Of a DNA stretch of 64,000 bases, positions 43,762 to 62,535 are shown in pieces. Numbering within the stretch: the stretch's first letter is position 1; each line of letters opens with the position of its first letter. Under the pieces are notes generated by a model, which was not told the origin of the DNA, made no database searches, and saw only the letters and a program-made list of their open reading frames with translations. This DNA comes from the human T2T-CHM13v2.0 reference genome, Homo sapiens, in assembly GCF_009914755.1 (NCBI RefSeq), contig NC_060926.1; one strand, 5' to 3'. The translations under genes and the position numbers were made by a program.

Positions 43762-43792
<31 letters not shown>
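43762..43792. repeat. (CA)n microsatellite
   Basis: Perfect AC run. Confidence 0.97.
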
Positions 43793-43797
<5 letters not shown>

Positions 43798-53163: not shown

Positions 53164-55608
53164 TCCAGCATATGTATGTATAATATATTTAACTAATCCC
53201 CAATTCCTGGGCATTTAGGTTCTTTTCCTTTTTTTTTTTTTTTTTTTTTTTTTTTTGGCAGTCCCCACTCTTCCCCTGCCATGCATGGAAGCCCTCAGCT
53301 TGGGAGCTCATCTTCCACACCGTCAGGTGGGAACCATGGCAGGCCTGCACCCTTGTGGCGGCTGCACCCCGTTTGCCAGGATTTGTCTGAGCCCTGACCT
53401 CAACCTAGGGGAATAAAGGAAGAGTCCCCAGGGGTTCTGCGGAGGGTTTTCCTCCCTGATTAAAGGAGATGCTTGGGTAAACTGTTCCCTTCTACTGGCC
53501 ATCCCCTCATCTGTAGGGGACACCTGCAGCTGTGTCAGGTGACTTGGGCAGCTATCACCAACAACTGAGGATGAGGGTGACACGACAGAGAGGTGGGAGA
53601 CAGCACTGAGACCCCTGGTGAATTGTTGAACAAGGGACCCTGCTCACTGGCCACTCTGCCTCTGGATTTCTTGTAACGTTCCTTATTGTTTAAGTCACTG
53701 TCAGTGATCTCCAAAGGTACCCTGACTGATGCGTTCATCGTCCATCTCTACTGTCCTGGGCCTGCCCATGCTGCGACACCCCATTTCTGCACCAAGCTCA
53801 CCTCACACTCAAGCACTACCTCTTCCTCCTCCCTGGGGCAGCTGTCCACAGGTCCTGCTTGGTTCCAGGTGGTCCCTCCCATACTTGTATCACTGGATAT
53901 CCCCCCAGTACTTGTATCACTGGAGGCTCACAGGCCTGGCTGCCCTCCTGAGGGCCGCACCTGTACCTTTTTCCTTTCTGGACAGGCCAGCCATGGACCC
54001 CTGGGTGGCCTGCATGAAATGTCTCAGCTTGTGCTAAATTCTGCCAATGGCCCTCAAACAGTTCTCCAGGGACCTCCCAGGCAAGGCCCTCCTTCCCACT
54101 AATGGCTTCTGCCTGATGCCTGTTGGGAGGATGGTAGCCATCAGGGACTATGCTAGACCAGACACCCTGGCCCTGTCTGGCCTCCCGAGGCTGAGACTTG
54201 GGTCTAGGTGGCCCCAGCTGATCCCTCAGCTACTGAGAGTGTGGTTAACACTTTCAGAGCCCCTGTGGGTCATAGCATGCACCCCTGGGCTAGAGCAGAG
54301 TCCAGTCTGGTTCTCAGGGTCAGCTGGGAGGCCAGGTTCAGGTGTCCCATCCAAGGGGATAAGAAGTGGGCAGGGAACAAGGACTGGATGTGAGGCTGAG
54401 CCCAGCTGGAACCCAGAGGAGAGCAGGGCAGGCCTTGAGTACAGCAAGGAGCCTTAAGTGATGTTCAAGACAGCAAGGGCCCCAACCAGGGAGTCCTGTC
54501 ACTGAACAGGCTGCAGAGTGGGAGATGGGGTGGCGGGAGTGGCGGGCAGCTGGGTGGTGGGGGTTTGGGTGCTGAGGGGCAGCCCTGGCTGGATGTGTCA
54601 CACTGGCCTGGAACCCTGGCCTGTTCTCATTGGTTACTGCTTACGGAGTGTGTAGGGGGCTGGCCTGGGAGGGTCTCAGGCTGGTGAACGAGTCTGAACT
54701 TCCCACACTACTGCCGGCACTGGGTTAAAGCCTGAAAGGGCCAGGTCAAAATGCCAGCATGGCCGTGAGGGATGGGACTTCTGCCATGCATGAGTGGCCA
54801 GTCATATTTCAGCTCTGCTGCCTAGGTCAAGAGGGGGCCAGTGTAGGAGGCTTGGTGTGGAGAGAAGAAGGAAGGCAGCTACACGTCCAAGAGGGCAGGC
54901 CTATGACAGGGCTGGGAGGGGACAAGAGACATGATGGAACATGTCGTCCAAGATCCTGTCCCAGAGTGTTGCTGATGCTCTGCTGGAAGCACACGGCCCA
55001 GCTTCGAGGGCCCAGCACGGCCACACCGCAGGGTACCGGGGCTCCAGAGCCAGGGGCGAAGCAGGGGTACAGGCAGAGGGACTGGGAGGGAGCGAGAGAG
55101 CTGCTGCGGTGGAGGAAGGTTTCAAAACCCACTTCCACCCTCCCTTCCCTGCAGTGATGCTGTTTAACAAACAGGACATCCTGAAAACAGAGAAGGTGGC
55201 TGGTGAGCTTTGGGTGTGACTGTCCACCCGTTTCCCCGTGGTAGTCAGGATCAACTACCCCAGCCCACGGGAAAACCCCCACCTCCCCCTTTGACAGACC
55301 ATCATGGGGAAATAGCGTTGCCACTGCAAAACAAGGACAGAGGCTCATGGCCAGCTTCCAGGGGATCCCCCAGGCTCCTCTGAGCACATCCATGTCTCGT
55401 GCTGAGATTAGATGGAAGATGCCAACAGGACCAGCAAAGGGTTCAGGCCCCCGAATGAAGGTGTGAGTTATCCTGCTGTGTTCAGTGACCTGACTAACCG
55501 AGGTGCTGCAGAGGACAAGGATCAGGAGTGGAGAGAGGCTGTCCTGTGCTATGTTGCAGAAATAAGGACAGTCACCTGTGTTTTTCCTTCCCTGCTAGGC
55601 CCTGAATA

Positions 55609-55658
55609 ATTAACCTTTGAAGTTAAAGACTGAAGGGATCTATACCCCTCTGCAGTGA
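55609..55658 (+). pseudogene. mt-tRNA-Lys pseudogene, 5'-truncated
   Basis: attaacctttgaagttaaag...cagtga immediately before the ATP8 ATG. Confidence 0.85.
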
Positions 55659-55859
55659 ATGCCTCAACTAGACACTTTCACGTGATCCATTATTATCCTG
55701 TCATAAATTTATTCACCATTATTCAGTTAAAATTATCAAATTTCATTTATCATATTACCCCTGCACCAAAAATAGTCAAAACACAAAAGCATAAGACCCC
55801 CCTGAGAATTAAAATGAACAAAAATCTATTCACCTCTTTTACTACCCCAACAATTCTAG
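55659..55859 (+). pseudogene. MT-ATP8 pseudogene
   Basis: atgcctcaacta start (MPQL), overlap with ATP6. Confidence 0.9.
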
Positions 55860-56486
55860 GTCTACCCACAGTAATATTAATCATTCTATTTCCTGCCATG
55901 CTATTTCCAATTTCCAGTCATCTAATTAGTAATCGATTAACTTCCATTCAACAGTGATAATTCAACTTGCACTAAAACAAATAATAATTACCCATAACAT
56001 TAAAGGATGAACCTGATCCCTTACACTGATATCCCTAATTATCTTCATTGCCTCAACCAACCTCCTCCAGCTTCTACCCCATTCATTTATATCAACTACC
56101 CAATTATCAATAAATCTAGGTATAGCAGTCCCCTGTGAGCAGGTGCAGTAATTACAGGCTTCCACTTTAAAACTAAAATCTCCTTAGCTCACTTTTTACC
56201 ACAAGGCATACCTATGCCACTTATCCCTATACTAGTACTCATTGAAACCATTAGCCTATCCATTCACCGATAGCATTAGCTGTGCAATTAACAGCCAACA
56301 TTACAGCCGACCACCTGCTAATACATTTAATCAGGGGACCCACACTGGTACTATCAACTATTAGTCTTCCCATAGCTTCAATTGCTTTCATTATTCTAAT
56401 ACTACTAACCATTCTCGAATTCACCATAGCCCTTATTCAGGCTTATGTCTTGACACTACTAGTAAGCCTTTATATGACAACACATA

Positions 56487-56487
<1 letters not shown>
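55814..56487 (+). pseudogene. MT-ATP6 pseudogene
   Basis: [18 protein letters not shown]...; [11 protein letters not shown]; disrupted. Confidence 0.95.
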
Positions 56488-57626
<1,139 letters not shown>

Positions 57627-57694
57627 ACTCTTTTAGTATAAATAGTACCATTGACTTCCAAACAATTAGTTTCCATAGTATCCAAAAGAGAGTA
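57627..57694 (+). pseudogene. mt-tRNA-Gly pseudogene
   Basis: actcttttagtataaatagtacc...ttcca...gagagta. Confidence 0.9.
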
Positions 57695-58036
57695 ATTAAC
57701 CTGACACTAGCCCTAGTAACCGACACCTTAATGGCCCTATTACTACTAATAATTACATTTTGGCTCCCACAACTTAACATTTATATAGAAAAATATAGCC
57801 TCTATGAATGCGGATTTGACCCAATAACCTCCACCCACCTCCCCTTTTCCATAAAATTTTTCCTAGTAGCCATCACATTTCTCCTCTTTGACTTAGAAAT
57901 CGCTCTACTACTGCTCCTACCATGAGCCCATCAAACAACCTGACACTAACAATCAGCACAGCCCTTCTACTAGTTATCATTTTAATCCTAGGCTTAACTT
58001 ATGAATGAACCCAAAAAGGATTAGACTGAGTTGAAT
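57695..58036 (+). pseudogene. MT-ND3 pseudogene
   Basis: YECGFDP...[24 protein letters not shown]. Confidence 0.95.
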
Positions 58037-58103
58037 TGGTAAGTAGTTTAAGTCAAAATAAGTGATTTTGACGCATTAGATTATGATAGGCCATATTTGC
58101 CAA
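58037..58103 (+). pseudogene. mt-tRNA-Arg pseudogene (anticodon TCG decayed to TTG)
   Basis: tggtaagtagttta...gattttgac...ccaa between ND3 and ND4L. Confidence 0.88.
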
Positions 58104-58397
58104 ATGCCCTCTATTTATATCAATATTATATTGGCATATACCATAGCACTACTGGGAGTATTAGTCTATCGATCCCACCTAATATCATCCCTATTATGCC
58201 TAGAAGCCATCATACTATCAATATTTATCATAATTACTCTTACAACTTTAAATATACATTTCATTCTAGCATCCATAACACCCATCATCCTCCTAGTATT
58301 TGCTGCCTGTGAAGCCGCAGTTCTTGCCTTACTAGTTTCAATCTCTAACACATATGGTCTAGATTACGTACAAAACCTACACTTACTTCAATACTAA
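58104..58397 (+). pseudogene. MT-ND4L pseudogene with open reading frame
   Basis: MPSIYINI...[34 protein letters not shown]. Confidence 0.95.
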
Positions 58398-59753
58398 AAA
58401 TTATTATTCCAACAATTATACTGTTACCAATAACATGATTCTCTAAAAATTCTATAATCTGAATCAACATGACTACCCACAGTCTACTCATCAGCCTCAT
58501 TACCCTATTATTTGTTAATCAATTCAACGATAACTCACCCAACTTCTCATTAATCTTTTCTGACCCGCTGACATCCCCCCTTCTAATCTCAACAGCCTGA
58601 CTACAAACTCCAGCAAGCCAATATCACCTGCCCAATGAATCACCCCCATGAAAAAAAGCTCTATATTTCTATATTGGTTTCCCTGCAGATTTTAATTATA
58701 GCATTCACAGCCACAGAACTAATTATATTTTATATCCTCTTTGAAGCTACACTAATTCCTACCCTGATTATCATCACCCGCTGAGGTAGGCAACCAGAGC
58801 GCCTCAATGCCAGCTCATATTTCCTATTTATACACTAGTAGGATCCGTCCCTCTACTTGTTACACTTGTCTACATTCAAAATACCTCAGTTTCACTAAAT
58901 ATTCTAGTAATGATATTTACCACCCAAGAACTATTAGCCTCCTGATCCAATAATCTTATATGACTAGCATGTATTATGGCTTTTATAGTGAAAATACCTC
59001 TATACGGACTTCACCTGTGACTCCCTAAAGCCCACGTAGAAGCCCCTATTGACGGCTCAATAGTACTTGCAGCAGTTCTCCTAAAGCTAGGCGGCTGTGG
59101 TGTAATATGGCTTACCCTTATCCTCAGCCCCCTAACAGAATATATAGCCTACCCATTCCTCATATTATCCCTATGAGGAATGGTTATGACAAGCTCTATT
59201 TGTCTACGACAAACCAATCTAAAATCACTTATTGCCTACTCCTGCATAAGCCATATAGCACTTGTTATCACAGCTATCCTCATCCAAAACCCTTGAAGCT
59301 TTACAGGTGCAGTCACCCTTATAATTGCCCACGGACTTACTTCATCCTTATTATTCTGCCTAGCAAATTTGAACTACGAGCAAATCCATACCCGAACCAT
59401 ATTACTTACCCGAGGCCTTCAAATACTGCTTCCACTAATAGCCTCTTGATGACTTCTAGCAAATCTCACTAACCTTGCCTTACCCCCTACCATTAATCTA
59501 GTAGGATAACTCTTTGTGACCATAGCTTCATTCTCCTGATCAAATATCACTATTATGTTTACAGGACTTAACATACTAATTACAGCCCTCTACTCCCTAT
59601 ATATATTAATCATGATACAACAAGGGACACTCACATATTACATTGACAGTATTAAACCTTCCTTTACACGAGAAAATACATTAATATTTATACATGTCGC
59701 ACCTATCCTTCTATTACCCTTAAAACCTAAAATTATTATGGGGTTTACATGCT
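58391..59753 (+). pseudogene. MT-ND4 pseudogene
   Basis: cctaaagcccacgtagaagcccctatt (PKAHVEAPI), indels. Confidence 0.95.
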
Positions 59754-59949
59754 GTAGCTATAGTATAACCGAAACCTTAGACTGTGGATCTAATAATAGA
59801 AGCCTGCAACTTATCTACCAAGAAATTACGCAAGGACAGCTAACTTGTGCCCCCATGCCTAACAACATGGCTTTCTCAACTTTTAAAGAATTAGAGTTGT
59901 CTATTGGTCTTAGGAACCAAAAACATTGGTGCAACTCCAAATAAAAGTA
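59754..59949 (+). pseudogene. mt-tRNA His, Ser(AGY), Leu(CUN) pseudogene cluster
   Basis: gactgtgga anticodon arm; aacaacatggctttctca; ttggtcttagg...ttggtgcaactccaaataaaagta. Confidence 0.92.
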
Positions 59950-60259
59950 ACAAATATGTATTTTTCCACTACTATAATAGCCCTAATCCCCTTAATCCTA
60001 CCAACTATTATCACCTTAGTCAACCCCTGCAAAAAAGGTTCATACCCAAACTACGTAAAAATATCTATCGTATGCGCCTTCACCATTAGCCTCATCCCAA
60101 CAATGTTTATATGTACAGACCAAGAAGTCATTATCTCAAACTGACATTCAATGACAATCCAAACTCTTAAACTCTCACTAAGCTTCAAACTACTTTTCCA
60201 CAATATTTATCCCAGTAGCACTATTTGTTACCTGATCTGTTGTAGCATTATCAATATGA

Positions 60260-60657
<398 letters not shown>

Positions 60658-61113
60658 CCTTTCAACTCTTTATCAGATGAGAAGGCGTAGGAATCATGTC
60701 TTTCTAACTGGCTGATGATATGGCCGAGCAGATGCTAACAAAAGCAGGCCTCCAAGCAGTTCTGTACAACCGCATCGGCGATACTGGCTTTATTTTTAGC
60801 TATAGCATGATTTCTCTTATCCTCCAACACATGAGACTTTCAACAAGCGTTTACTCTAAACCCTATCCCCGACACCCTTCCATTACTTACTTAGCAGCAG
60901 CAGGAAAGTCAGCTAAATTCAACCTCCATCCCTGACTCCCATCCGCCATAGAAGGCCCAACCCCAGTCTCGGCCCTGCTCCACTCCAGCACTGTAGTTGT
61001 AGCAGTTTTCCTACTCATCCGTTTCTACTCTTTAATAGAAAATAACCTATTCATCCAAACCTTTACATTATGTCTAGGGGCTATTACCACCCTACTTACA
61101 GCAATCTGCCCTT

Positions 61114-61314
61114 CAGCGCCAGGGGAATGCCCGACAGCTACCTTCTCCCCCGTGACCGCCGGGCTCCGTATCCTGGGCGAGCCGCCCGGCTCCGGATAGC
61201 AGGAAACTGGGGAGGGCTCCGGCCTCGCCTCGTCAGCCCCGGAGCCTTCACCAATCCCGGGCCCGGAAAGACCACGCCCACTGCTGGCCCCGCCTAGCAC
61301 CTGCGCAGGTGCAG
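61114..61314. promoter_or_regulatory. Non-mitochondrial CpG-island-like cassette with promoter motifs
   Basis: About 19 CpGs in 201 bp; CCAAT 61251, CCACGCCC 61272, GCCCCGCCT 61287, NRF1-like TGCGCAGGTGCA. Regulatory function is inferred, not shown. Confidence 0.6.
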
Positions 61315-62117
61315 TCTCCACCTCAAGCCAGCTGGGCCTTATGATAGTCAAAATTGGTATTAATCAGCCACACCTAGCATTCCTTCACATCTGCATCCAC
61401 GCCTTTTAAAAAGCTATATTATTTATATGTTCAGGCTCCATTATCCATAACCTCAATGATGAACAAGATATCCGTAAAATAGGAGGACTATTCAAGACTT
61501 TACCCTTCACTTCCTCTTCCCTTATTATTGGCAGCCTTGCACCTACAGATATGCCTTTCCTCACAGGCTTTTACTCTAAAGACCTTATCATCGAAACCGC
61601 AAATACATCATACACCAACGCCTGAGCCCTTTCTATTACTCTTATTGCCACCTTTTTAACAGCTGTCTATAGTACCCGAATTATTTTCTTCACTCTAATA
61701 GGACAACCTCACTTCATAACTCTATTATTAATGAAAATAATCCCTTCCTAATTAACTCAATTAAGCACCTAACAATCGGCAGTATATTTGCTGGATTCCT
61801 CATGACCAACAGTATTATTCCTGCTTCATCCCCCCCAAACAACTATACCACTTCACCTAAAGCTCACAGCCCTAGGTGTAACCACCTTAGGCCTCTTACT
61901 AGCAATAGAGCTCAAGCTCATAACTAATAATCTTAAACTAAAGTACCCATTACAGATATTTAACTTCTCCAATATGCTAGGTTTTTATTCAGCCACAATT
62001 CATCGTTCAACCCCCCACTCAAGCCTATTCAGGGGTTAGGCTAAAGGTTAAAGCACAGATTTTAATTCATTAAACTTCTATTTTCTTTATCCTCTCTTTC
62101 CCCCATGATAATATAGG

Positions 62118-62535
62118 ACAGCAGTTCTCAAATGCTTTGGTCACAAGACCCCCTCACACTCTTGAAATGACCGAGGACCTCAACGGGCTTTTGTTTATGA
62201 GCTACGTCAACATTTAGCATCTTAGAAGTTAAAGCCAATAACTCTGAAAAACATTTATTCATCCATTTGAAGACTATACATCCATTACATGTTACCTTAA
62301 AAAAATTTTTAAACCTATATTTTCCAAAACAATATATTTCATCAGTAGGAGTGGCATCGTTTTACATTTTTGCAGATCCTTAAAGCCTGGCTTAACAGAA
62401 GGCTGCTGCATCCTCATAGCTGCTTCCGCCTTCGGTCTGTTGCAGTATGGTATCCTGACTGAAGAAAACCACGTGGGGTTGGGAAAGGAAGGACCTTGAG
62501 GACCCTCAGGGGTCCTTGGACCACACTGCCGAGGG
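62118..62535. mobile_element. hAT-Charlie element (MER119-like)
   Basis: cagcagttctcaaa...ggtcacaagacccc start; ggggtccttggaccacact end. Confidence 0.7.

What the first reader, a model, noticed from the sequence alone, without database searches (positions are those of the whole stretch)
61114..61314. Promoter-like CpG cassette inserted in the ND5 NUMT
Seen: ND5 homology stops after gcaatctgccctt and resumes at tctccacctcaag. Between them is ~201 bp of very GC-rich DNA with about 19 CpGs, no poly-A and no TSD; about 30 nt of ND5 (acacaaaatgacatcaaaaaaatcgtagcc in human mtDNA, from memory) is missing. The cassette holds a CRE half-site (cgtca 61231), CCAAT (61251), an ETS-like ccggaa (61263), two Sp/KLF GC boxes (61272, 61287) and an NRF1-like site. 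Established: these motifs typify CpG-island housekeeping promoters. Inference: a piece of another gene's promoter was captured during break repair, possibly creating a new promoter or enhancer that could transcribe the NUMT or act on neighbouring genes.
Basis: partly seen in the sequence, partly recalled or inferred. Interest (0 to 1): 0.85.

Follow-up and report, generated by a model that had tools for sequence, protein, structure and literature searches.

The report
Copied CpG-island patch in a NUMT
A 197-base GC-rich block that interrupts a mitochondrial-DNA fossil on human chromosome 2 is an old copy of a unique CpG-island stretch lying 227 kb away, pasted in when a chromosome break was repaired; this is a known kind of event, and no promoter activity is shown.

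Summary
Window 61114-61310 is 72% G+C with 19 CpGs and replaces 27-29 nt of the ND5 pseudogene. It has no target-site duplication and no A-tail.

A donor was found. The whole genome holds one other copy, on the same chromosome and strand 227.4 kb downstream (T2T chr2:120,878,538-120,878,739). It matches at 89% identity, E 3e-66, and sits inside a roughly 1.6-kb CpG-island-like, otherwise single-copy block. This is a repair-mediated duplication, also called a class-2 templated sequence insertion, a kind already catalogued in primates (PMC2671141, PMC5110952).

The event is old. Non-CpG divergence between copy and donor (10-12 of 152 sites) equals what is expected if the patch is as old as the NUMT (11.2). 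An age below half the NUMT's is disfavoured.

The patch kept 14 of 16 inferable CpGs, more than the flanking NUMT (22 of 35) or local Alus (75 of 227). That hints at CpG-island-like protection from methylation.

Whether the donor is a promoter, and whether the copy is active, could not be tested.

The parts
55609..62031 (+). The NUMT (ATP6 to ND5), the acceptor. It is colinear with seven other NUMT copies except for two Alu insertions and the patch. It reaches about 200 bp further left and 60 bp further right than the annotated pseudogene rows (55814..61972).
   Evidence: BLAST of window 55500-62300 against loci L029-L035; genome searches.
61114..61310 (+). The patch: a templated copy of the donor. 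196 aligned pairs with 17 mismatches, plus one 1-nt and one 6-nt indel. G+C 0.72, 19 CpGs. The donor itself lies outside the window, at window place 288538-288739 (T2T chr2:120,878,538-120,878,739; locus L002 1499-1700), plus strand. It is still in place, inside a CpG-island-like block running from about -1000 to +600 around it, which is single-copy apart from the patch.
   Evidence: 89% identity, E 3.1e-66; composition.
61101..61115 (+). Left junction. ND5 ends at CCCTT (61113). CA at 61114-61115 fits both ND5 and the donor (CG in the donor), so 0-2 nt of microhomology.
   Evidence: Alignments.
61308..61322 (+). Right junction. The donor match ends at GGT (61310) and ND5 resumes at GCA (61311): an apparent blunt join. 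27-29 nt of ND5 are lost between the two junctions.
   Evidence: Alignments.
60361..60659 (-). AluY-type insertion in the ND5 NUMT with a 12-nt target-site duplication (60349-60360 and 60659-60670) and a pure 14-nt tail. It is the contrast case for a retrotransposed insert.
   Evidence: Rfam SRP and mir-1268 matches.
57048..57425 (-). Older Alu insertion in the CO3 part of the NUMT. Non-CpG divergence is 16 of 234 from the window's Alu consensus, and 7 of 23 CpGs are kept. It shows the NUMT predates this Alu.

Best explanation
The block is a repair-mediated duplication. A double-strand break inside the ND5 part of the NUMT lost 27-29 nt and was closed with a roughly 197-nt patch. The patch was copied from a unique CpG-island-like stretch 227.4 kb downstream on the same chromosome, in the same orientation, and the donor stayed intact.

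Shown: acceptor, donor, direction of copying, the deletion, the absence of retrotransposition marks, and great age.

Inferred: the pathway. The most likely route is that a broken end or displaced strand contacted the donor, copied it, and was end-joined at the acceptor with little or no microhomology. This is the SDSA / end-joining route of Pace et al. 2009 and the contact-dependent templated insertion of Min et al.

Timing: at NUMT integration or in the first half of its residence. By recalled primate divergence figures this is roughly 25-40 million years ago. Whether it was the same event as the NUMT integration is open; I put a separate later break at about 60% and the same event at about 30%.

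Function: the default reading is a neutral scar. The slow CpG loss suggests the patch kept some CpG-island-like protection from germline methylation. Promoter activity is unproven.
For: Copies: only two in 3.1 Gb, the window and C2:120878540-120878739 (+), 89% identity, E 3.1e-66. A 1.9-kb search around the donor finds the same pair only, plus one unrelated 55-nt match at E 1.2e-4.

Uniqueness of the match: of 65 local matches between the window and 20 kb around the donor, 61 fall on two repeat stretches, 3 are a 30-nt match at 43763-43796, and 1 is the patch.

Direction: in the window the homology ends exactly at the ND5 edges. At the donor, G+C and CpG density run on across both edges (200-bp bins at -200, 0 and +200 have 16, 17 and 14 CpGs).

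Target deletion and no duplication: nine other NUMT copies.

Not an RNA family: 0 of 6 Rfam matches at E<=1 overlap the patch.

Age, NUMT side: the NUMT's own branch is 86 changes in 2334 sites that are invariant in the other seven copies, or 3.7%.

Age, patch side: patch versus donor gives 10-12 non-CpG differences in 152 sites, against 11.2 expected for equal age. With half the age, P(X>=obs) is 0.06 and 0.013.

Known kind: Pace et al. report 1,136 such insertions in human transposons, 58 of them on the same chromosome more than 5 kb away, with a median length of 204 bp for distant ones (PMC2671141, section 6). Class-2 templated insertions lack target-site duplication and A-tail and show microdeletion (PMC5110952, section 9). 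Donors are enriched in promoters and transcribed loci and need contact with the acceptor (bioRxiv 10.1101/2022.09.30.509517, abstract and passages).
Against: No outgroup genome could be read, so no empty site was seen. Direction and date rest on one genome.

The date assumes equal rates in the two copies and in G+C-rich versus A+T-rich DNA. It rests on 10-17 differences.

The deletion (27-29 nt) is larger than the 1-15 nt range in Table 1 of Pace et al.

That paper classed only donors closer than 5 kb as confident repair duplications, because 17 of the 29 inter-chromosomal duplications it inspected had A/T tails. This one has none.

Microhomology cannot be shown at either junction.

Equal age with the NUMT also fits co-capture in the integration event itself.
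Confidence: 0.85

Rival explanations
1. Co-capture: the nuclear piece was taken up in the same repair event that integrated the mitochondrial DNA. This could be by ligation of three fragments, or by a copying end that switched from the mtDNA template to the nuclear donor and back 27-29 nt further on.
For: The patch is as old as the NUMT within error (10-12 differences observed, 11.2 expected for equal age). Chimeric acceptors made from two donors are known (20 of 1,136; PMC2671141, section 6). NUMTs themselves are filler DNA at breaks (PMC2567098, passages).
Against: The two mitochondrial parts are in the same order and orientation with only 27-29 nt missing. Free ligation of fragments would rarely give that, while a later break in a continuous NUMT gives it automatically. 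The age interval also allows 0.5-1.0 of the NUMT's age.
Confidence: 0.3
2. RNA-templated patch: a transcript of the donor island was reverse-transcribed, and the cDNA was used to close the break. This is the route proposed for class-2 templated sequence insertions.
For: Class-2 insertions are enriched for transcribed sequence and are reduced by reverse-transcriptase inhibitors (PMC5110952, section 5). The donor match ends at CAG|GT, which resembles a 5' splice site.
Against: The match runs two bases past CAG into the would-be intron, and the following bases fit a splice donor poorly. There is no exon-exon join and no A-tail. If the CCAAT and GC boxes mark a plus-strand promoter, the copied stretch lies upstream of the start and would not be in the sense transcript. 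I had no transcript data for the donor.
Confidence: 0.2
3. One reading: the copied piece works as a new promoter or enhancer. It would start transcripts in the NUMT or act on TMEM185B or RALB.
For: CpG loss is slow. 14 of 16 CpGs are kept, against an expected 0.47-0.66 from the local NUMT and Alu decay (P 0.001-0.054), and similar to the donor (14 of 17). CCAAT, CCGGAA, a GC box and a TGCGCA half-site are conserved in both copies. MTND5P28 appears in expression-based gene lists (PMC12622666 table passage; PMC10545698 passage).
Against: The hub's RefSeq table lists no transcript start or functional element there. The block is only about 200 bp. NUMT CpGs next to it decayed as elsewhere (within 400 bp 10 of 15 kept, further away 21 of 49), so there is no wider unmethylated domain. 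Pseudogenes upstream of the patch (MTCO3P43) appear in the same lists. That fits minus-strand read-through from TMEM185B, whose 3' end is 208 bp from the NUMT, as well as it fits a start in the patch. The motif test is post hoc.
Confidence: 0.12
4. Unrecognised low-copy repeat, or the window copy is the source and the distal copy the derivative.
For: The genome search scores only the best candidates and skips very common words (tool note).
Against: Two searches found exactly two copies. The window copy is bounded on both sides by the ND5 edges with ND5 sequence missing. The distal copy sits in continuous CpG-rich DNA.
Confidence: 0.03

Closest known systems
Repair-mediated duplications (capture of chromosomal DNA at germline breaks; Pace, Sen, Batzer and Feschotte 2009, PMC2671141)
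   Same: An insert of at least 50 bp interrupts a sequence whose uninterrupted form is known. There is one parental copy elsewhere, on the same chromosome, and the donor is intact. There is a deletion at the target and no A-tail. Its length of about 197 bp is close to their median of 204 bp for distant events. It is old, like most of theirs: 855 of their 1,136 events are shared at least with macaque (289 catarrhine-specific, 513 primate-specific and 53 also in a non-primate mammal).
   Different: The acceptor is a NUMT, not a transposon, so their RepeatMasker-based screen could not have listed it. The donor is 227 kb away (their confident class is under 5 kb; 58 events are same-chromosome and over 5 kb). 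The deletion is larger than their 1-15 nt range. No microhomology can be shown.
Class-2 templated sequence insertions (Onozawa and Aplan; review PMC5110952)
   Same: No target-site duplication, no polyadenylation signal or A-tract, a microdeletion at the junction, and the donor retained.
   Different: Theirs are polymorphic or experimental events and are argued to be RNA-derived. This one is fixed and tens of millions of years old, and an RNA origin is neither shown nor favoured.
Contact-dependent templated insertions from transcribed loci and promoters at breaks (Min et al., bioRxiv 10.1101/2022.09.30.509517)
   Same: The donor is CpG-island-like DNA on the same chromosome, and the product looks end-joined.
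   Different: Their events are somatic, in cultured cells, at engineered breaks. Donor transcription and donor-acceptor contact are untested here.
NUMT integration as filler DNA in end joining (Hazkani-Covo and Covo 2008, PMC2567098)
   Same: The same logic of a break closed with unrelated DNA. Here the product of one such event later became, or at the same time was, the acceptor of another.
   Different: The filler is nuclear, not mitochondrial. NUMT integrations usually delete little or nothing (54% show no deletion in their abstract), while here 27-29 nt are lost.
L1-mediated retrotransposition (Alu, processed copies, class-1 insertions)
   Same: A short insert copied from elsewhere.
   Different: No target-site duplication, no A-tail and a target deletion. 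The neighbouring Alu at 60361-60659 shows what the L1 route leaves.

Membership tests
Repair-mediated duplication / class-2 templated sequence insertion | The insert interrupts a sequence whose uninterrupted form is known | tested here: met
   Nine other ND5 NUMT copies run straight through the site.
Repair-mediated duplication / class-2 templated sequence insertion | Exactly one parental copy elsewhere in the genome, still in place | tested here: met
   Two copies only. The donor was read in place.
Repair-mediated duplication / class-2 templated sequence insertion | No target-site duplication and no A/T tail | tested here: met
   Contrast with the Alu.
Repair-mediated duplication / class-2 templated sequence insertion | End-joining or SDSA marks at the junctions: deletion, microhomology or filler | tested here: met
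   A deletion of 27-29 nt is met. Microhomology of 0-2 nt on the left and none on the right is inconclusive, and no filler is evident.
Repair-mediated duplication / class-2 templated sequence insertion | Empty site in an outgroup species | not testable with these tools
   No primate genomes are held. Only the window's own assembly could be searched.
L1-mediated retrotransposed copy (class 1) | Target-site duplication of 5 nt or more, an A-tail, and a TTTT/A target | tested here: not met
   None of the three is present.
Interspersed repeat family | Many dispersed copies | tested here: not met
   2 copies in 3.1 Gb. No repeat library was available to search.
Known RNA gene (Rfam) | Match to a covariance model | tested here: not met
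   0 of 6 matches at E<=1 in 60000-62500 overlap the patch.
CpG island (criteria recalled: at least 200 bp, G+C at least 0.5, observed/expected at least 0.6; stricter version at least 500 bp) | Length, G+C and CpG ratio | tested here: inconclusive
   201 bp, G+C 0.716 and ratio 0.75. It meets the loose criteria at the minimum length and fails the 500-bp version. The thresholds are recalled, not taken from a call.
CpG island | Unmethylated in the germline (slow CpG decay as a proxy) | tested here: inconclusive
   14 of 16 CpGs are kept, against 0.47-0.66 expected from local NUMT and Alu decay, P 0.001-0.054. A direct Fisher test against the NUMT flanks (22 of 35) gives P 0.068. No methylation data were available.
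Active promoter | Transcription start, open chromatin, H3K4me3 | not testable with these tools
   No such data were at hand. The hub's RefSeq table shows no start or functional element at the patch.

The most novel reading that the evidence does not exclude
A 200-bp fragment of a CpG island was transplanted by break repair into A+T-rich, methylated mitochondrial-derived DNA some 25-40 million years ago. On this reading it has kept itself unmethylated ever since and now serves as a small autonomous CpG island. It would start the transcripts counted as MTND5P28, or act on TMEM185B or RALB. That would be a natural, dated experiment showing that a CpG-island state is encoded in about 200 bp of sequence and survives transplantation over evolutionary time.
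Probability: 0.12. Interest if true: 0.6.

Novelty: new member of a known kind. Interest (0 to 1): 0.3.

Why it matters
As it stands this is one more dated example of a catalogued process: breaks closed with a copy of distant chromosomal DNA. It occurs in an acceptor class (NUMTs) that the published transposon-based screen could not see.

Its practical value is for annotation. MTND5P28 is not pure mitochondrial sequence, and reads or ChIP peaks assigned to it may come from the nuclear patch.

The one point that could lift it is the slow CpG loss. If germline methylation data show the patch unmethylated, it becomes a clean natural test of whether a short CpG-rich fragment carries its own chromatin state to a new site.

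Tried and rejected

Spliced-RNA origin: the donor match ends at CAG|GT but runs into the GT, and the site is a poor splice donor. I kept this only as a minor rival.

Wider unmethylated domain around the patch:
- Ancestral CpGs of the NUMT within 400 bp are kept 10 of 15, and further away 21 of 49. There is no clear gradient.
- The Alu 455 bp upstream keeps 20 of 23 CpGs while 19 other Alus of the window keep 0-48%. This looked like support at first.
- Alignment with four near-consensus AluY-type copies shows that most of its differences lie in two clustered complex changes. Its tail is pure and its target duplication intact, so youth explains it.

Motif enrichment: 0 of 5000 shuffles hold all seven motif types, but the set was picked from this sequence, so I give it no weight.

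Expression leads:
- MTND5P28 occurs in 2 papers, in a TWAS table and in a three-way gene overlap.
- The five held supplementary files of PMC10545698 contain no mention of it. Files not held could still bear on this.
- A five-term search for the neighbouring pseudogene names timed out. The two-term repeat found 3 papers, which I saw as listings only.

Donor identity: papers on 2q14.2 (PMC2696749, PMC5356751; passages only) gave no coordinates that place the donor island at a named gene. My placement of the donor in the INHBB-GLI2 interval, near LINC01101, comes from recalled coordinates and is unverified.

In print: I found no description of this patch. I did not examine the supplements of NUMT catalogues.

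Full report
**What is there.**

Window 61114-61314 is a sharp G+C peak. The 200-bp bin at 61100 has G+C 0.70, against 0.39-0.53 in the neighbouring bins. The block itself has G+C 0.716, 19 CpGs and CpG observed/expected 0.75.

It sits in the ND5 part of a NUMT. By comparison with seven other NUMT copies of the same genome, the NUMT runs from about 55609 to 62031. It is colinear with them except for two Alu insertions and this block.

I aligned the site with nine other ND5 NUMT copies.
- ND5 stops at 61113. The CA at 61114-61115 fits both ND5 and the donor.
- ND5 resumes at GCA, 61311.
- The 27-29 nt that all nine other copies carry in between are missing.
- There is no target-site duplication and no A-run.
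- The Alu 455 bp upstream shows the opposite pattern: a 12-nt duplication and a pure 14-nt tail.

All seven motifs it named are at the stated places.

**Where it came from.**

A search of the window's own 3.1-Gb assembly with 61100-61330 found two places. One is the window itself. The other is C2:120878540-120878739, plus strand, at 89% identity and E 3.1e-66. That is 227.4 kb downstream on the same chromosome and strand.

A pairwise alignment gives 196 aligned pairs over 61114-61310, with 17 mismatches and two indels of 1 and 6 nt.

I compared the whole window with 20 kb around the donor and found 65 local matches.
- 61 fall on two repeat stretches of the donor region. These also match the window's Alus.
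- 3 are a 30-nt match at 43763-43796.
- 1 is the block.

A search with 1.9 kb around the donor found, apart from itself and one 55-nt match at E 1.2e-4, only the window copy. The donor is therefore unique DNA, not a repeat family. Rfam gives nothing on the block: 0 of 6 matches at E<=1 in 60000-62500 overlap it.

**Direction of copying.**

In the window the similarity ends exactly where ND5 ends and resumes, and ND5 sequence is missing.

At the distal site the stretch lies inside continuous CpG-rich DNA. From about -1000 to +600 the 200-bp bins have G+C 0.54-0.73, and the bins at -200, 0 and +200 hold 16, 17 and 14 CpGs.

The distal site is therefore the donor and the NUMT the acceptor. The donor is still in place, so the event was a copy, not a transfer.

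**Junctions.**

- Left: ND5 ...CCCTT, then CA (ambiguous), then the donor match. This gives 0-2 nt of possible microhomology.
- Right: the donor match ends at ...GGT and ND5 resumes at GCA.... The two parental sequences share a four-base word at this point. The product lacks one of its bases, so use of microhomology cannot be shown.
- Overall: a deletion plus a near-blunt join, with no filler evident.

**Age.**

I aligned 4.1 kb of the window NUMT, without the Alus and the block, to seven other NUMT copies. The closest, on chromosome 9, differs at 391 of 3623 sites (10.8%).

At sites where at least six of the other copies are present and all of those agree, the window copy has 86 private changes in 2334 sites, or 3.7%. 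This is the lowest of the eight copies. At such slow sites the mitochondrial trunk contributes little, so the figure estimates the nuclear decay of this NUMT since integration.

The block and its donor differ at 10-12 of about 152 sites outside CpGs.
- If the block were as old as the NUMT, 11.2 differences are expected.
- For half that age, 5.6 are expected, and P(X>=obs) is 0.06 or 0.013.
- For a third of that age, P is 0.005 or less.

The block therefore entered at NUMT integration or in the first half of the NUMT's residence. This assumes equal rates in the two copies and in G+C-rich and A+T-rich DNA.

By recalled figures for human-macaque divergence (about 6.5% in total), 3.3-4% per lineage points to roughly 25-40 million years. 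An older Alu inside the NUMT (57048-57425; 16 of 234 non-CpG differences from the window's Alu consensus, 7 of 23 CpGs kept) fits an old NUMT.

I cannot decide between a separate later break and co-capture during integration.
- The near-perfect continuity of ND5 across the block (same order and orientation, 27-29 nt lost) is what a later break gives automatically.
- Free ligation of fragments would rarely give it.
- A copying end that switched templates and returned could also give it.

**CpG loss.**

Of CpGs that can be inferred from the two copies, 14 are intact in both. Three were lost by transition in the donor and two in the window copy. A capture-recapture estimate gives retention of 14 of 16 in the window copy and 14 of 17 in the donor.

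For comparison, the flanking NUMT kept 22 of 35 ancestral CpGs (those supported by at least three other copies). Ten Alus of the window with 4.8-6.8% non-CpG divergence kept 75 of 227.

Scaled by non-CpG divergence, the decay constants are as follows.

| Sequence | CpG decay constant |
|---|---|
| Window copy of the block | about 3.4-4.1 |
| Donor | about 4.9-5.9 |
| Flanking NUMT | 12.6 |
| Local Alus | 18.9 |

- The chance of keeping 14 or more of 16 under the local rates is 0.001-0.054.
- A direct Fisher test against the NUMT flanks gives 0.068.
- The numbers are small, and the reference rates were treated as exact.

This is a hint, not a proof, that the copy has been partly protected from methylation-driven decay, as a CpG island would be.

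There is no sign of a wider protected domain.
- NUMT CpGs within 400 bp are kept 10 of 15, against 21 of 49 further away.
- The high CpG content of the neighbouring Alu (20 of 23) is explained by its youth.

**Function.**

Nothing at hand tests promoter activity.
- The hub's RefSeq table has no transcript start or functional element at the block.
- Five of the seven motifs (CCAAT, CCGGAA, two GC-box words, TGCGCA) are shared with the donor. CGTCA and CACGCCC are not.
- The shuffle result is post hoc.
- MTND5P28 appears in a TWAS table together with TMEM185B, RALB and MTCO3P43 (PMC12622666, one passage).
- It also appears in a three-way overlap of RNA-seq and binding lists together with MTCO1P12 (PMC10545698, one passage). 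The five held supplementary files do not mention it.
- MTCO3P43 lies upstream of the block, and TMEM185B ends 208 bp beyond the NUMT on the minus strand. Unstranded reads over the NUMT are therefore explained at least as well by read-through from TMEM185B.

**Comparison with what is known.**

The event matches the repair-mediated duplications of Pace et al. 2009 (PMC2671141; abstract and sections 6, 7 and 10 read).
- They found 1,136 insertions of unique genomic DNA inside human transposons.
- 824 have the donor within 5 kb, 58 are on the same chromosome further away, and 254 are on other chromosomes.
- Distant events have a median length of 204 bp.
- The junctions show deletion, filler or microhomology.
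- Most predate the ape-monkey split.
- They also noted that such copies can duplicate transcription-factor sites.

Their screen used RepeatMasker annotation, so a NUMT acceptor could not have been listed.

The event also fits the class-2 templated sequence insertions of Onozawa and Aplan (PMC5110952; sections 5, 8 and 9 read). In addition, it fits the finding that donors of templated insertions come preferentially from promoters and transcribed loci in contact with the break (bioRxiv 10.1101/2022.09.30.509517; abstract and passages). It fails every test for L1-mediated insertion.

I found no description of this particular block in print. I did not examine the supplements of NUMT catalogues.

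**Verdict.**

The promoter part is untested, with one modest computed hint in its favour. The block is a new member of a known kind. Interest is low to moderate unless germline methylation and transcription-start data show the patch to be an autonomous CpG island.

Noticed in passing
L018 2080-3054 (G000:C2:238012755-238013729): Another ND5 NUMT on chromosome 2 carries a tandem array of 16 copies of a 61-nt unit (93% matches). The unit derives from the ND5 stretch matching window 60951-61005: a minisatellite born inside a NUMT.
   Followed up: partly
window 60361-60659: An AluY-type element in the ND5 NUMT keeps 20 of 23 CpGs, while 19 other Alus of the window keep 0-48%. It is about 6-7% different from near-consensus copies. 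Most differences lie in two clustered complex changes, the tail is a pure 14-nt run, and the 12-nt target duplication is intact. I read it as a young insertion with two complex mutations.
   Followed up: yes
window 55609-55813 and 61973-62031: Similarity to other NUMT copies extends about 200 bp left and 60 bp right of the annotated pseudogene rows (55814..61972). The NUMT therefore ends only 208 bp from the 3' end of TMEM185B (62239, minus strand).
   Followed up: partly
window 57480-62025 versus L029-L035: Among eight related NUMT copies the window copy has the shortest private branch (3.7% against 4.3-7.9%) and the highest CpG retention (22 of 35 against 21-54%). It is either the youngest of the group or the slowest-evolving.
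   Followed up: partly
L002 820-1060 (donor island, about 450-680 bp upstream of the copied stretch): The donor island holds A+T-rich TAAT-type words (for example around 835-850 and 1000-1015) embedded in CpG-rich DNA. This is reminiscent of a developmental regulatory element rather than a housekeeping promoter. I did not test it.
   Followed up: no
window 43763-43796: A 30-31-nt exact match to the donor region (offset +2736 to +2767). It is probably simple or low-complexity sequence.
   Followed up: no
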